DNA from: an uncultured archaeon
GTDB lineage: Archaea; Asgardarchaeota; Jordiarchaeia; Jordiarchaeales; Jordiarchaeaceae
Length of the DNA: 7,951 bases
Assembly (NCBI GenBank): GCA_964510585.1
Contig: CAZECW010000153.1
Location: 1 to 7,951 of the forward strand
Direction of reading: 5' to 3'
The position numbers were made by a program, and so were the translations under genes. How positions within the stretch are numbered: the first letter of the stretch is position 1; each line of letters starts with the position of its first letter. The notes under the pieces are model-generated. The model saw only the letters and a list, made by a program, of their open reading frames with translations, had not been told where the DNA came from and did no database searches. This document shows, piece by piece, positions 1-3,532 of this stretch.

Positions 1-139
1 CAGCCCCCATGAGGGTGCCAACATAGACGCCGTTCCCTTTGAGGGAAGGGCGTGTTAACTGGGTGATGGCACACCCATTGCTTCGAAGGCGATGAGCCAG
101 AAGCAAGAATCTCCCGACTTTAGTCGCGGAGAGTGTCAA
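1..139 (+). mobile_element. Right end of an IS200/IS605-family element (IS608-like RE); element continues left of the window
   Basis: GAAT (107-110) sits at the foot of the imperfect hairpin CTCC-CGAC-TTTA-GTCG-c-GGAG (111-131), followed by AGTG and TCAA (136-139). This matches the IS608 right-end layout of guide GAAT, subterminal hairpin with TTTA loop, and cleavage site TCAA. GGT-like coding sequence on the minus strand stops at this boundary. No tnpA/tnpB is visible in the window. Confidence 0.88.
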
Positions 140-155
140 AAGGTTCTCCTCTCTC
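1..155 (+). ncRNA. Candidate TnpB omegaRNA (reRNA): 3' part of the scaffold plus a flank-derived guide of about 16 nt
   Basis: Dense GC-rich stems: ACGCC-g-TTCCCT-ttg-AGGGAA-g-GGCGT (27-53), GTGCCA/TGGCAC (15-20/67-72), CATTGCTT/AGGCGATG (76-94) and the RE hairpin (110-132). In IS200/IS605 elements the omegaRNA comes from the right end and the guide from the adjacent flank (here AAGGTTCTCCTCTCTC, 140-155). The 5' end and the presence of tnpB cannot be seen. Confidence 0.55.
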
Positions 156-1151
156 ATATTTTATGTTTTCTCTGAGCTGTGAAGCGTACTCTTTTGAAAG
201 TAGTTTATCTAATGGTATCTCTACAAATTCTGGGTCTGTCACATATTGATCTCTCACTTTGAAGGCACACTTTTTAGCCTCAACCATCAAGTGTATGGTT
301 TCAGGCTTCTGCCATCCATATTGGGATAGTTCGAAACCCTCGATTATGTTAAGTTCGATGAGTGTGGTAACTCCCTGTGAATTTGGGGGAAACGCATAAA
401 CCTCATAGCTTCTGTAGTGTGTTTTTATGGGTTCCACCCAGTTAGACTTGTGGTCCTTTAAATCCTTCTTGGTGATTAGACCACCATTTTCCTCCGAAAA
501 TTTAACTATGGATTCGGCCAATTCCCCTTTATAGAATTCATCTCTGCCTCCCTCAGCCAACTTTCTTAATGTCGCTGCTAATTCCTTCTGTACTAGAACT
601 TCACGCGGTTTAATTATACGTCCTCCTCTTATGTACATCTCTGCCAACTTCGGGCTGGAAGTCAAAACATCGATATTTGAATTTATAAACCAGTAAAATT
701 TATCTGTTATGGGAGCACCTCTCTCAGCATATTCTATAGCTGGCTGAATCAATTCACTCAGCGTTTTTGTCCCAAACCTCTCAACTGCCGTGCACCAGCC
801 ATCAACAACTCCCGGAACTGTCACAGGAAGCATACCTCTCACGGGGATCGATGAGAAGCCCATGGATCTGAAGAGATTTCTCTTGGCAGCGTAGGTAGCC
901 CTACCACTGGCATTAAGTCCAAAAACTCTATCTTCACCCGCATCATATATGAGAAGGAACGCGTCTCCCCCTAACCCACACATATGTGGATAGACTACCG
1001 CCAAGACCATGTTTGTTGCTATTGCTGCATCAACGGCATTACCTCCCCCCTTAAGCACTTTTAATCCTTCGATTGAGGCCAATCTATGGGGGGAAACAAC
1101 CAACCCATTACGAGCCCTAGTTAAAGGATATACGGAAGGCATTATAATCAT
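120..1151 (-). pseudogene. ggt: Gamma-glutamyltransferase (Ntn-hydrolase, YwrD/archaeal type), truncated by IS insertion; encodes essentially the large subunit only
   Basis: Motifs GGNAVDAAIA, HMCGLGGDAF, NASGRA, VTVPGVVDGW, PAIEYAERG and FPPNSQG are present. Native sequence ends at P337 (nt 141-143). FDTLRD and the TAA stop (120-122) are read from the antisense IS end. The catalytic Thr and small subunit (about 190 aa) are absent. The start may be the ATG at 1142, with GGATGAT upstream. Confidence 0.88.
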
Positions 1152-1458
1152 CCAAAGATTTACTTTTAGTATCAGAACTTATACAATTTCGCTTTTATAG
1201 ATAGGGGGAGGCTTCTTGTAGAAGAAGTGTGCAAAATAACCAGACCTCCAAATTATTAGGGGATGACTAACGGTTGACTGATTTTTCTGCTTCCAAATAT
1301 AAATGTGATTTTGATTAGTATTTTATAGGGCAAACAATTCTTGTCGACAATGATTTTAGACGATGGTCTTTAGAAAAGACATAAATTCCTTAAACTCTTA
1401 ACACTGATTGTAACAACCTGGGTCTACGTCAGCTAAATTTTTTGGAGGCGTTTATCTC

Positions 1459-2607
1459 TTGGCGGAATATCCAAAGCTCAAAGAAATCTACAACGAAATT
1501 ATACGCTGCTATCGCTGTGGACTTTGCAGGGTTTCTTGCCCCGTTTTCAAATATTCAGGAACGGAGTCATGGAATGCTAGGGGCCGACTAATTTTGCTCC
1601 GCGCCCTTACAGACAATAATGTAAATGTCTCGGACTCCCTTATTGAACGTATATATTCCTGTGCCCTGTGTAGGGAATGTGAAGTTTTTTGCCCGCCGGG
1701 TGTAAATGTGTCTGGCATAATAGAAGTAGCCAGGGAAGAGCTTGTAAAGAATGGTTTAGCTCCTCCCGAAGAGCAGAGAGAACTGCAGAAAAATATTCTC
1801 CAGGAGGGAAATATTCTAGGTAAAAGAACCCAACCCTTAAACACACTCCTAGGACCAATCATTGATAGCCTCCCCGACTCGTCACCCAATCTGGTGTATT
1901 CTGGTTGTGTCTTGTTATACTCCTACCCGCAAATTGCTCAGACTACGCTGGGAAATATTCAAAACGCCAAGTATGATTTCACCGTGATGAAAGAGGGGGA
2001 GAAGTGTTGTGGTGGATTTCTCAAAATGATAGGTTATAAGGAGGATTTCGACTCTTATAGCCAGAAACAATTGGAACTGCTAACCGAGAAGGAGATTGAC
2101 CAATTAATTACTATTTGTCCCATGTGCTACTCGACTTTCAAACATGACTATCCCCAAAAGTTAGAAGTTAAGCACACAGTCCTTCTTTACAATGAGTTGC
2201 TAGATGAGGGAAAAATAGTTTTTAACAGATCACTGGATGCTAAAGTTGCGTTTCACGACTCCTGTCACCTTGGCCGCTATTCGGGAATCTTCGAGCAGCC
2301 AAGAAAACTAATTGAAAATGTTCCTGGAATCAAATTAGTTGAACTATCTAAATCTAAAAAATCTTCAAACTGTTGTGGTGGAACAATAAGAGTTCCCTAC
2401 GCTCAGATTAGGAGCAAAATGTCTGAATGGATAATAGAAGACGCTTCACAAGCAGGGGCGGAATACTTGGTGACCGCTTGTCCCTCCTGTTTCCACAACT
2501 TATACTCTTCCTCCATCATGATGGATTGCAAAGTAAAAATCATTACCCTAGAAGAATTGGTGGGCTGTGCAACTGGACAACTGCCAAAAATACCCTTATA
2601 TAAATAA
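1459..2607 (+). CDS. (Fe-S)-binding oxidoreductase subunit, GlpC/HdrD-like (4Fe-4S dicluster plus two CCG domains), 382 aa
   Basis: CYRCGLCRVSCP and CALCRECEVFCP; CCG domain 1 has YSGC, EKCCGG and TICPMC; CCG domain 2 has FHDSCHLGR, NCCGG and TACPSC. TTG start with GGAGG at 1444-1448. Confidence 0.93.
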   Translation: MAEYPKLKEIYNEIIRCYRCGLCRVSCPVFKYSGTESWNARGRLILLRALTDNNVNVSDSLIERIYSCALCRECEVFCPPGVNVSGIIEVAREELVKNGLAPPEEQRELQKNILQEGNILGKRTQPLNTLLGPIIDSLPDSSPNLVYSGCVLLYSYPQIAQTTLGNIQNAKYDFTVMKEGEKCCGGFLKMIGYKEDFDSYSQKQLELLTEKEIDQLITICPMCYSTFKHDYPQKLEVKHTVLLYNELLDEGKIVFNRSLDAKVAFHDSCHLGRYSGIFEQPRKLIENVPGIKLVELSKSKKSSNCCGGTIRVPYAQIRSKMSEWIIEDASQAGAEYLVTACPSCFHNLYSSSIMMDCKVKIITLEELVGCATGQLPKIPLYK

Positions 2608-2749
2608 ACGGATACACTAAAGGATTTCTCCGGTGTAAGTAAGTTTTCTTAAAATTAGAAATTAATTAATTATGTGATAACTATTATTTCAGGGTAAAAC
2701 TTAATATGTCTCCTTGCGTTTCAAAAACATGCTTGTGGAGGACAATGTT

Positions 2750-3532
2750 ATGTCAGAAATTGAACCAAGGGTTATGCACAGTCAAGATATTAGAAAATTC
2801 AAAATTGGTAGAGGTTTTAGTCTTGGAGAAATAAGCGGCGCTGGACTGAGCGTGCACGAGGCTAAAAGACTCTCACTTAGAATAGATCGGCGAAGAAAAA
2901 CAACACATGAATTCAACATAGACGCTATCAAGACCTACATAAAAGAAAAGAAGAAAAAATTGGAAGAGAAAAAAGCAGAAGAGACAAAAAAGTTGTCCTT
3001 AGAAGAAGCCGAGAAACGGGCAATCTCCGAGTTAACGAAAATAGAAGGGCTAAACAAAAAGCTGGCTCAAAAACTCTTCCAGAACAAAATAGACTCACTA
3101 GAAGCCTTATCAAGTGCGAAGGCTAAAGACTTGGCCAAAAAAGTTGGAGTAAGTGAAACAAGAGCACAACTTTGGATTGAGGACGCCCAAGTGCTTACTG
3201 GAAAAATTAAACCCGAAAAGCCAGAGGAAGTAAAGGAGGAAGCCAAAGAAAAAGCTGTAGAAGAAATTCCAGAGATAGAATCCGTAGACCTCACAAAAAT
3301 TAAAGGCTTAACAAACCAGGAAGCCAAGAAACTAGCAGAGATAGGCATTCTCACACTGGAGGATCTAGCTTTAACTGAAGAGGAAGAAATAGAAGAAATA
3401 ACTAAAATAACTAAAATCCCCCAAGACACCATCAAGGACTGGATTAAGGAAGCAAAAGGGCTTATTGAAAAATCCAAGGAAACTGCCAAACCCAAAAAGA
3501 GAGCCAAGGCAAAAACAAAGAAGAAGACATAG
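2750..3532 (+). CDS. rpl13e: Ribosomal protein eL13 (L13e) N-terminal domain fused to two tandem helix-hairpin-helix (DUF4332/HHH_5-like) domains and a Lys-rich tail, 260 aa
   Basis: L13e signature GRGFSLGEI..AGLS..EAKRL.L.ID.RRKT.HEFNI (about 2750-2947). Repeats LTKIEGL...L...I.SLEAL...WIEDA (about 3026-3196) and LTKIKGL...L...I.TLEDL...WIKEA (about 3284-3463). The ATG at 2750 is preferred over the TTG at 2714 because GGAGG (2737-2741) lies 8 nt upstream. Confidence 0.88.
   Translation: MSEIEPRVMHSQDIRKFKIGRGFSLGEISGAGLSVHEAKRLSLRIDRRRKTTHEFNIDAIKTYIKEKKKKLEEKKAEETKKLSLEEAEKRAISELTKIEGLNKKLAQKLFQNKIDSLEALSSAKAKDLAKKVGVSETRAQLWIEDAQVLTGKIKPEKPEEVKEEAKEKAVEEIPEIESVDLTKIKGLTNQEAKKLAEIGILTLEDLALTEEEEIEEITKITKIPQDTIKDWIKEAKGLIEKSKETAKPKKRAKAKTKKKT

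What the first reader, a model, noticed from the sequence alone, without database searches (positions are those of the whole stretch)
1..155. IS608-like right end with a folded omegaRNA-like scaffold whose guide would target the intact ggt allele
Seen: GAAT-hairpin-AGTG-TCAA (107-139) plus at least three further stems in 13-94. One + frame is open from the window edge to a TAA at 56-58 (SPHEGANIDAVPFEGRAC), which could be a TnpB C-terminus overlapping the RNA. Known: TnpB uses an RE-derived omegaRNA with a guide from the flank to cut IS-free alleles next to a TAM equal to the transposon target motif. Inference: if tnpB lies upstream, this is an archaeal OMEGA nuclease locus programmed with AAGGTTCTCCTCTCTC (antisense ggt) that would drive retention of the ggt disruption. 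It could also be a non-autonomous PATE/MITE relic.
Basis: partly seen in the sequence, partly recalled or inferred. Interest (0 to 1): 0.72.

Follow-up and report, generated by a model that had tools for sequence, protein, structure and literature searches.

The report
Gene-less IS605 mini-transposon with guide-RNA scaffold
Window 1-139 is the right half of a roughly 271-base, protein-free IS200/IS605 mini-transposon present about 75 times in this hot-spring archaeon; it keeps the folded guide-RNA scaffold of a TnpB nuclease encoded elsewhere and has disrupted the ggt gene, a well-preserved example of a kind of element already described.

Summary
GAAT (107-110), a bulged hairpin (111-131), AGTG and TCAA (136-139), three more stems (27-53, 60-77, 78-106) and the frame ending at TAA 56-58 are all there. 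The RNA fold has z = -5.4.

The main interpretation, tnpB just upstream, is wrong. All 29 complete copies and every contig that enters the element from the left show a 271-279 nt gene-less element (a PATE/MITE). Its left end lies about 132 nt before window position 1. About 75 copies exist, 79 of 81 sit after TTAC, and homology stops exactly at 139.

The scaffold is homologous to the tnpB 3' end and right end of a TnpB family spread through thermophilic archaea. Across 32 sequences the stems and a pseudoknot covary. One intact tnpB of that family (contig C81) and intact tnpA genes are in the genome.

Use of the RNA in trans to cut the emptied TTAC-plus-flank site is inferred. Transcription is not shown.

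ggt is truly broken: its two halves end 182 nt apart, and the missing piece holds the catalytic Thr.

This scan already reached the same reading for other copies in this genome. PATEs that encode omegaRNAs are published.

The parts
1..139 (+). Right 139 nt of a 271-279 nt gene-less IS200/IS605 mini-transposon (PATE/MITE). The contig starts inside the repeat.
   Evidence: 29 complete copies plus about 46 left-half and about 44 right-half contig ends. Window base 1 corresponds to element position 133-134.
2..58 (+). Relic of tnpB C-terminal codons (RuvC-III region), broken by a deletion. It is not a live ORF.
   Evidence: DNA alignments A1 and A2 against real tnpB 3' ends. In complete copies the sequence upstream is non-coding.
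51..95 (+). Second tnpB relic in another frame (RVNWVMAHPLLRRR*). Compare ..DNWVVAHPLLLRW.. in the intact C81 TnpB.
27..53 (+). Scaffold stem-loop S1.
   Evidence: Fold. Compensatory changes at 5 or more pairs.
60..77 (+). Scaffold stem-loop S2. Loop bases 67-71 (UGGCA) form the 5' half of the pseudoknot.
   Evidence: helix 3 is 91.7% paired and 3 pairs change on both sides. Helix 4 (the pseudoknot) is 99.4% paired.
78..106 (+). Scaffold stem S3. It is a shortened version of a roughly 85-nt stem in the tnpB-bearing relatives, and this copy also lacks the CTCC found in most copies.
107..110 (+). GAAT at the 5' foot of the right-end hairpin, in the position of the TnpA 'guide' tetranucleotide G_R.
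   Evidence: One difference in 284 cells across copies.
111..131 (+). Right-end subterminal imperfect hairpin (the TnpA binding site as ssDNA; stem S4 of the RNA).
134..138 (+). UGUCA tail, the 3' half of the pseudoknot. It overlaps the TCAA cleavage site (136-139).
   Evidence: helix 4: one A-U to G-C double change, five one-sided changes that keep pairing, one unpaired cell in 160.
140..159 (+). Flank that would serve as the guide of a read-out omegaRNA. It is antisense to ggt.
   Evidence: Layout only: 69 of 69 right flanks are distinct. Transcription is not shown.
140..1151 (-). 5' fragment of ggt (337 codons), cut off by the element. The annotated ORF runs on to a stop at 120 inside the element.

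Best explanation
Window 1-139 is the right half of a gene-less IS200/IS605 mini-transposon (a PATE/MITE of 271-279 nt) that has multiplied to about 75 copies in this archaeal MAG.

Shown:
- The complete element has this layout. TTAC is the target and stays outside. An 18-nt leader ends in AAAG, followed by the left-end hairpin. Next comes a stretch homologous to the tnpA promoter region of a full IS in the same genome, including a TATA-like box. Then a roughly 50-nt hairpin region of unknown origin. Then about 140 nt homologous to the tnpB 3' end plus right end of a second IS lineage, which is the window's part. This last block holds stems S1-S4 and a pseudoknot and ends ...GAAT-hairpin-AGTG-TCAA.
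- Copies sit after TTAC without target duplication, and each has a different right flank.
- The scaffold's stems and pseudoknot covary across a TnpB family found in many thermophilic archaea.
- The genome holds intact tnpA genes behind near-identical left-end hairpins.
- The genome holds at least one intact tnpB (contig C81, 424 aa). Its own right end shares the S2, pseudoknot, S3-base and S4 sequences almost letter for letter.

Inferred:
- TnpA supplied in trans excises and pastes the element as single-stranded DNA.
- The element is transcribed through its right end into the flank, possibly from the inherited tnpA promoter.
- TnpB supplied in trans loads this omegaRNA and cuts any emptied site (TTAC followed by the flank, here TTAC + AAGGTTCTCC... 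in ggt). Repair from a sister chromosome then restores the element.

At this locus the result is a dead ggt gene.
For: - Copy number and boundaries. There are 29 complete copies plus balanced numbers of left-half (about 46) and right-half (about 44) contig ends. Homology ends at window 139.
- All ten contigs inspected that run into the element from the left carry the mini form, never tnpB.
- Target: 79 of 81 left flanks end in TTAC, and 69 of 69 right flanks are distinct.
- Natural empty sites exist. G004 reads TTAC|ATGTTT at the ggt left-end junction. G000 contig C35 reads TTAC|AATAGTCAGTGG, and a contig of run X1 has the element at that site. About 0.002 such matches are expected by chance.
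- Homology to tnpB-bearing elements: C8, C54, C152 and C45 right ends are 76-78% identical. The C81 element and 20+ relatives share the S2, S3-base and S4 sequences.
- Structure: z = -5.4. On 32 sequences 89.9% of cells pair, against 39-51% when partners are slid. 18 pairs change on both sides. The covariation score is 0.238 against 0.04-0.09 for slid partners, and 0 of 500 shuffles reach it. The pseudoknot is 99.4% paired.
- Two independent mini-element lineages keep the scaffold from S1 to the right end while deleting everything else: this one, and a roughly 200-nt family in same-genus genome G004 derived from the other IS lineage.
- Among copies, variation is 1.4% in stems, 0.14% in pseudoknot bases, 4.8% in loops and 2.6% in unannotated positions.
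- Enzymes: Y1_Tnp hits with E = 3e-37 to 2.5e-32 behind left ends 81-91% identical to the element's. The C81 TnpB carries OrfB_IS605 plus TNB domains and an NADAVGALN RuvC-III motif.
Against: - No direct evidence that the RNA is made. The one RNA-labelled run holds a single low-depth (3.4) contig. Its ends coincide with points where the copies differ, so they may be assembly breaks, and DNA carry-over cannot be excluded.
- The TATA-like box is the most variable stretch of the element (10% differences) and is replaced outright in two copies. That weakens the 'own promoter' idea.
- Rare variants (in 2 copies or fewer) are no scarcer in stems than elsewhere (0.42% against 0.47%). So there is no sign of purifying selection on individual copies. 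The stem/loop contrast reflects subfamily history, and copies are not independent.
- S3 lacks about 50 nt relative to the C81-type scaffold, and S1 is of a different type. Compatibility with either TnpB is untested.
- The interior of the multi-copy tnpB lineage is missing from the assembly, and one copy carries a frameshift.
Confidence: 0.8

Rival explanations
1. Inert hitch-hiker. The element is mobilised by TnpA through its two hairpin ends only. The omegaRNA-like block is a young leftover of the deletion that created the element and has no RNA function.
For: - Copies are only 0-7% diverged, so there has been little time for decay.
- Rare variants hit stems as often as other sites.
- The TATA-like box is the least conserved part.
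- No proof of transcription.
Against: - Two independent deletion derivatives, in G000 and G004, both keep S1 through the right end. Published work indicates TnpA needs only the subterminal hairpins and the guide and cleavage tetranucleotides (PMC3201880).
- All pseudoknot bases are essentially invariant across about 70 copies.
- Subfamily differences fall in loops.
Confidence: 0.3
2. One reading: a full IS608-like element with tnpB (and tnpA) lies just left of the window, and 2-58 is the live TnpB C-terminus.
For: - The contig starts inside the element, so this copy's own upstream DNA is not seen.
- The frame 2-58 resembles a TnpB tail.
- tnpB-bearing elements with related right ends exist in the genome.
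Against: - The tnpB-linked right ends are only 76-78% identical (C8 type) or carry a roughly 50-nt longer S3 (C81 type). The window is 98.6% identical to the complete mini-element on C49.
- Every left-entering contig shows the mini form.
- Left-half and right-half contig ends are balanced in number.
- Window 6-28 carries a deletion relative to real tnpB coding sequence, and the frame shifts at about position 50.
Confidence: 0.03
3. The read-out transcript acts as an antisense or regulatory RNA on neighbouring genes (here antisense to ggt), or guides a nuclease-dead TnpB-like repressor, and does not serve transposon retention.
For: - The transcript direction at this locus is antisense to ggt.
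- Domesticated TnpB-derived RNA-guided repressors are published (title of doi 10.1101/2023.11.30.569447, listed).
Against: - Most copies are intergenic and show no consistent relation to genes. Only 3 of 29 restored sites have an ORF of 150 aa or more across the junction.
- ggt is already destroyed by the insertion.
- The C81 TnpB keeps its RuvC-III Asp motif.
Confidence: 0.05

Closest known systems
PATE-like gene-less IS200/IS605 elements that encode omegaRNAs (Geobacillus stearothermophilus; Meers et al. 2023, doi 10.1101/2023.03.14.532601)
   Same: No protein gene. Left and right ends are shared with tnpA- and tnpB-bearing elements of the same genome. They carry the omegaRNA region and are proposed to depend on TnpA and TnpB supplied in trans.
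   Different: Archaeal host. Copy number is about 75, against 'several' PATE-like elements there. The element is a chimera of two IS lineages (left end plus tnpA promoter region from one, scaffold from another). The S3 stem is shortened. No experimental data exist here.
PATEs of Haloquadratum walsbyi and other haloarchaea (Dyall-Smith et al. 2011, PMC3119063)
   Same: Archaeal, transposase-free, with near-terminal palindromes related to IS605-type transposons. No inverted terminal repeats and no target duplication. 'Homogeneous' families above 90% identity arise by core deletion.
   Different: Those were described before omegaRNAs were known. Here the retained core is shown to be the TnpB guide-RNA scaffold, with covariation support.
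IS608 of Helicobacter pylori (IS200/IS605 family prototype)
   Same: Insertion 3' of TTAC, right end closing in TCAA, AAAG at the 5' foot of the left hairpin, top-strand subterminal imperfect hairpins, and tnpA-then-tnpB order in the full relatives (PMC3201880). GAAT as the IS608 right guide is from memory; I did not find it in the text I read.
   Different: Spacing differs slightly: 18 nt here against 19 nt from TTAC to the left hairpin foot, and 8 nt here against 10 nt from the right hairpin foot to the end. The element here has lost both genes.
ISDra2 TnpB omegaRNA (reRNA) (Karvelis et al. 2021, PMC8612924)
   Same: The RNA is derived from the tnpB 3' end plus right end. It has several stems and a pseudoknot next to the guide. 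The guide is the DNA just outside the right end, and the TAM equals the transposon's target motif. The ISDra2 structural details are from memory.
   Different: No detectable sequence similarity was tested or claimed. The TAM would be TTAC, not TTGAT. Here the RNA gene is separated from the nuclease gene.

Membership tests
IS200/IS605 (IS608-type ends) | Insertion 3' of a fixed tetranucleotide, with no target-site duplication | tested here: met
   79 of 81 left flanks end in TTAC. Empty sites TTAC|flank are seen in G004 ggt and at G000 C35.
IS200/IS605 (IS608-type ends) | Subterminal imperfect hairpins on the same strand at both ends, with no inverted terminal repeats | tested here: met
   Left CCCCCGAC-loop-GTCG(T)GGGG and right CTCCCGAC-loop-GTCG(C)GGAG hairpins.
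IS200/IS605 (IS608-type ends) | Guide tetranucleotide at the 5' foot of each hairpin and a cleavage tetranucleotide at each boundary | tested here: met
   AAAG with TTAC at the left end, GAAT with TCAA at the right end. Differences across copies are 0.6% or less. IS608 values for TTAC, TCAA and AAAG were read in PMC3201880.
IS200/IS605 (IS608-type ends) | A Y1 HUH transposase able to act on these ends | tested here: inconclusive
   Intact Y1_Tnp genes sit behind left ends 81-91% identical to the element's, with the same hairpin stem. Activity was not tested.
PATE / MITE of IS200/IS605 | Too short to encode a transposase, many dispersed copies, ends shared with full IS605-type elements | tested here: met
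   271-279 nt, about 75 copies, ends shared with the C169/C7 and C8/C81 elements.
TnpB omegaRNA | Sequence descends from the tnpB 3' end plus right end | tested here: met
   Alignments A1 and A2 with tnpB-bearing elements of G000, G004 and 20+ archaeal MAGs.
TnpB omegaRNA | Conserved secondary structure supported by covariation, with a pseudoknot next to the guide | tested here: met
   89.9% of cells paired against 39-51% when slid, 18 pairs with double changes, pseudoknot 99.4% paired.
TnpB omegaRNA | Encoded in cis, overlapping a tnpB gene | tested here: not met
   No tnpB in any of the 29 complete copies or at the left-entering contig ends. This is a solo scaffold.
TnpB omegaRNA | Transcribed, with a 3' guide of about 16-20 nt taken from the flank | tested here: inconclusive
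   One 217-nt contig in an RNA-labelled library spans the scaffold plus 12 nt of flank at depth 3.4. Contigs cannot show ends, and DNA carry-over is possible.
TnpB omegaRNA | Binds TnpB and directs TAM-dependent DNA cleavage | not testable with these tools
   Needs biochemistry or an interference assay.

The most novel reading that the evidence does not exclude
One or a few tnpB genes (the intact C81 copy, perhaps also the C8-type lineage) service about 75 promoter-bearing solo guide-RNA transposons. Each is programmed by its own flank to re-home into its emptied site. This would be a large-scale division of labour between nuclease-coding and guide-only elements in an archaeon, with selection acting to keep the scaffold in independently arisen mini-elements.
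Probability: 0.35. Interest if true: 0.5.

Novelty: new member of a known kind. Interest (0 to 1): 0.3.

Why it matters
It removes a false lead: there is no OMEGA nuclease gene at this contig edge. It also explains why about a quarter of this MAG's contig ends break in the same repeat.

Biologically it is a clean, high-copy archaeal example of guide-RNA scaffolds travelling without their nuclease. The scaffold family has good covariation and a supported pseudoknot, which could help anyone characterising thermophilic archaeal TnpB systems. The principle itself, PATEs carrying omegaRNAs that are served in trans, is already published.

Tried and rejected
- Rfam scan of window 1-1500 at E <= 1 gave no family.
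- I looked for the interior of the multi-copy tnpB lineage by BLAST from C8's start. It is not in the assembly.
- I looked for the origin of the element's middle 50 nt (the S0 hairpin). There is no homolog outside element copies in G000 or the fetched loci, apart from a solo left-end remnant in G004:C77.
- My first idea that GCTAAACAAGA came from the TnpB 'KLNKM' codons was dropped after seeing that remnant.
- I tried to derive a promoter consensus from tRNA upstream regions. ARAGORN finds only 6-7 tRNAs in this genome, so there was no usable set.
- RNA evidence: run X1 holds two low-depth contigs. One is a C81-type relative. The other spans the element, but its ends fall at copy-variable sites. 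It cannot show transcription, a start or an end.
- I looked for an intact ggt allele or a bridging contig in three DNA runs. None was found: contigs covering ggt in X2 and X4 start at window 112, inside the element.
- The 182-nt middle piece of ggt is absent from the assembly. The smallest contig is 1697 nt, so it could simply have been filtered out.
- Test for copy-level purifying selection using rare variants showed no difference.

Full report
**What is in the window**

GAAT lies at 107-110. A bulged hairpin runs C111-G131 with loop TTTA and C127 unpaired. AGTG follows at 132-135 and TCAA at 136-139. The frame from base 2 stays open to TAA at 56-58.

Folded as RNA, 1-139 gives stems 27-53, 60-77, 78-106 and 110-132. 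The free energy is -61.9 kcal/mol against -41.8 +/- 3.7 for shuffles (z = -5.4).

From 140 onward the minus strand encodes the first 337 codons of a gamma-glutamyltranspeptidase (Pfam positions 2-312 of 512, E = 1e-100). Rfam has no family for the region.

**It is a high-copy repeat, and the whole unit is tiny**

The window is contig C153 of a 217-contig, 3.78-Mb MAG. The 139 nt recur throughout it, and homology ends at 139-141.

Aligning 26 internal copies with 400 nt of upstream DNA shows that similarity begins only about 132 nt before window base 1, directly after a conserved TTAC. The unit is 271-279 nt.

A search with a complete copy finds 29 full copies, about 46 contig ends holding only the left half and about 44 holding only the right half. 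That makes roughly 75 elements and explains about a quarter of all contig ends.

I inspected ten contigs that run into the element from the left. Each shows the same short left part, and none shows tnpB.

The window's right half is 98.6% identical to the complete copy on C49. It is 100% identical to five other right halves (C68, C216, C48, C78, C74). So this copy's own left half is not seen, but it is almost certainly the mini form.

**Anatomy of the element**

Outside the element sits TTAC (79 of 81 left flanks). Inside, in order:
- An 18-nt leader ending in AAAG.
- The left hairpin.
- A stretch homologous to the region between the left end and the tnpA start codon of full elements in the same genome (C169, C7, C162). 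It includes a TATA-like GGTATATAAATAG that matches their GGTATATTGATAG.
- A roughly 50-nt hairpin region. Its only relative is a solo left-end remnant in a same-genus genome.
- The roughly 140-nt block seen in the window.

TTAC as target, TCAA as right cleavage site and AAAG as left guide are the values published for IS608 (PMC3201880). GAAT as its right guide I recall but did not find in the text I read.

All 69 right flanks differ from one another.

**Where the window's block comes from**

Two tnpB-bearing lineages are in the genome.

Lineage A has tnpA and tnpB behind left ends 81-91% identical to the mini-element's. Its copies break the assembly:
- Left parts are at C169, C7 and C162.
- Right parts are at C8, C54, C152 and C45.
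- The right ends are 76-78% identical to window 20-139.
- The tnpB interior is missing.

Lineage C is a single element on C81:
- It has a decayed tnpA.
- It has an intact 424-aa tnpB with OrfB_IS605 plus TNB domains. Its NADAVGALN motif aligns to the RuvC-III motif of a solved TnpB.
- Its right end shares the window's S2, the base of S3 and the right hairpin almost letter for letter. It carries about 50 more nucleotides inside S3.

Relatives of this TnpB at 54-83% identity occur in MAGs labelled Bathyarchaeia, Nitrososphaeria, Methanomethylicia, Archaeoglobales, Jordarchaeia and others. Their 3' ends all show the same architecture.

The mini-element is therefore a chimera. It has a lineage-A-type left end and promoter region joined to a lineage-C-type scaffold with a shortened S3.

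H..GA.NI..AV corresponds to H-R-D-A-V-G-x-L-N-I with a deletion. The reading then shifts frame into VNWVMAHPLLRRR* (51-95), matching ..NWVVAHPLLLRW.. of C81.

**Is the scaffold a conserved RNA?**

I aligned 32 sequences:
- Five mini-element variants, including the window.
- The C81 element and 21 relatives.
- Two lineage-A elements.
- Three mini-elements from same-genus genomes.

On a structure of S1, S2, S3 outer stem, S4 and a pseudoknot (S2 loop UGGCA with tail UGUCA), the counts were:
- 89.9% of cells pair, against 39-51% when the 3' partners are slid by 1-3 columns.
- 18 pairs change on both sides.
- The covariation score is 0.238 against 0.04-0.09 for slid partners, and 0 of 500 shuffles reach it.
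- The pseudoknot is 99.4% paired, with one A-U to G-C double change and five one-sided changes that keep pairing.

S4 covariation could reflect the TnpA DNA hairpin alone. S1-S3 and the pseudoknot are not known TnpA requirements.

A second argument comes from same-genus genome G004. It has its own roughly 200-nt mini-element family, derived from lineage A by a different deletion. That family also keeps exactly S1 through the right end.

**Variation among the roughly 75 copies**

Differences from consensus run as follows:

| Region | Differences |
|---|---|
| Stems | 1.4% |
| Pseudoknot bases | 0.14% |
| AAAG and GAAT | 0.6% or less |
| Unannotated positions | 2.6% |
| Loops | 4.8% |
| TATA-like box | 10% |

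The TATA-like box is replaced outright in two copies.

Variants seen in at most two copies are spread evenly (0.42% in stems against 0.47% elsewhere). The stem/loop contrast therefore reflects which master copies multiplied, not selection on each copy. Copies are not independent, so the p-values from that script should not be quoted. The variable TATA-like box weakens the 'own promoter' idea.

**Activity and expression**

The element is, or recently was, mobile:
- Six right halves are identical.
- G004's intact ggt shows the unoccupied TTAC|ATGTTT site where G000 carries a left end.
- A contig in run X1 carries the element followed by AATAGTCAGTGG. In G000 that sequence sits directly after a TTAC at C35 with no element present. 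About 0.002 such matches are expected by chance.

X1 is labelled metatranscriptomic. Its 217-nt contig spans from the TATA-like box to 12 nt past TCAA. However, depth is 3.4 and the contig ends coincide with sites where copies differ. DNA carry-over cannot be excluded either. I do not count it as evidence of transcription.

DNA contigs from two other studies (X2, X4) carry the same ggt-element junction, and none bridges to an intact ggt.

**The ggt locus**

The other part of ggt is on C161, directly after the left half of an element and in the matching orientation.

Against the intact orthologs of G003 and G004 (open frames of 569 and 547 aa, 90-91% identical), the window's right-end junction and C161's left-end junction lie 182 nt apart. 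The missing 182 nt encode the segment with the autoprocessing and catalytic Thr (..EGD-T-VYLAVVD..). They are not in the assembly, whose smallest contig is 1697 nt.

Two explanations remain open:
- Two elements inserted 182 bp apart in the same orientation.
- Recombination between two elements deleted the interval.

The subtype markers favour two separate copies. The window's half lacks CTCC, while C161's half carries markers that in complete copies go with CTCC-containing right halves.

Either way ggt is dead, not a naturally split enzyme. Most other copies are intergenic: only 3 of 29 restored sites have an ORF of 150 aa or more across the junction.

**Mechanism**

Shown: the element's structure, target, copy number and polymorphism. 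Also shown: homology and covariation of the scaffold, and the presence of intact tnpA and tnpB genes with matching ends.

Inferred from the published IS200/IS605 model:
- TnpA supplied in trans peels the top strand out and pastes it after TTAC.
- A transcript running through the right end into the flank is bound by TnpB supplied in trans.
- The emptied site, which is TTAC plus the guide-matching flank, is cut and then repaired from a sister copy that still holds the element.

**Comparison and verdict**

Gene-less IS200/IS605 derivatives (PATEs) were defined in archaea in 2011 (PMC3119063). Meers et al. state that PATEs often encode omegaRNAs that must be served in trans by TnpB.

Earlier follow-ups in this scan reached the same reading for other copies of this very family (e1-5396197, e1-5396798, e1-5394981, e1-5396259). 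My independent tests agree. The host's assignment to Asgard archaea comes from those notes and was not re-tested here. The window's genes and all TnpB relatives are archaeal.

This is a new member of a known kind. It is interesting mainly as a very high-copy archaeal example with a well-supported scaffold structure.

Noticed in passing
window 120-1151 (-) and G000 contig C161:1-539: The two ggt fragments end 182 nt apart relative to intact orthologs. The missing piece holds the catalytic Thr, so the gene is dead and not a natural large/small-subunit split. Either two elements sit 182 bp apart or a deletion occurred between two elements.
   Followed up: yes
G000 C81:5072-6787 (L034): A single IS605-type element has an intact 424-aa tnpB but a decayed tnpA (the HUH motif is lost, and it reads through in one open frame with tnpB). 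Its left hairpin differs from its right hairpin, so it may itself be a chimera.
   Followed up: partly
G000 C169:18490-19401, C7:1-1089 (-), C162:1-731 (-), C8:1-366, and ends of C54, C152 and C45: There are at least 3-4 copies of a full tnpA-tnpB IS608-like element. Every copy is broken by the assembler inside tnpB. C162 has a frameshifted tnpA and C7 a frameshifted tnpB. The tnpB middle is absent from the MAG.
   Followed up: partly
G004 (same genus): L063-L069, e.g. L064:194-320 (-): An independent roughly 200-nt mini-element family, derived from the other IS lineage, keeps only the left end, an A/T-rich spacer, and S1 through the right end.
   Followed up: partly
G000 C35 about 1640-1660: An unoccupied TTAC|AATAGTCAGTGG site is occupied by the mini-element in a contig of run X1, a microbial-mat library from another study. 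This is an insertion polymorphism between populations.
   Followed up: partly
L079:2563-2757 and L100:2624-2836: In an Archaeoglobales MAG the right hairpin arm is tandemly duplicated. In a Nitrosopumilales-labelled MAG a roughly 26-nt unit inside S3 is duplicated. The distal S3 and the hairpin tolerate length changes.
   Followed up: no
whole genome G000: ARAGORN finds only 6-7 tRNA genes in 3.78 Mb, several of them with long or odd introns. tRNA genes here must be unusual or largely unassembled.
   Followed up: no
window 2714-3532 (+): A 272-aa ORF combines helix-hairpin-helix (HHH_5) hits with a partial ribosomal L13e-like match and DUF4332.
   Followed up: no
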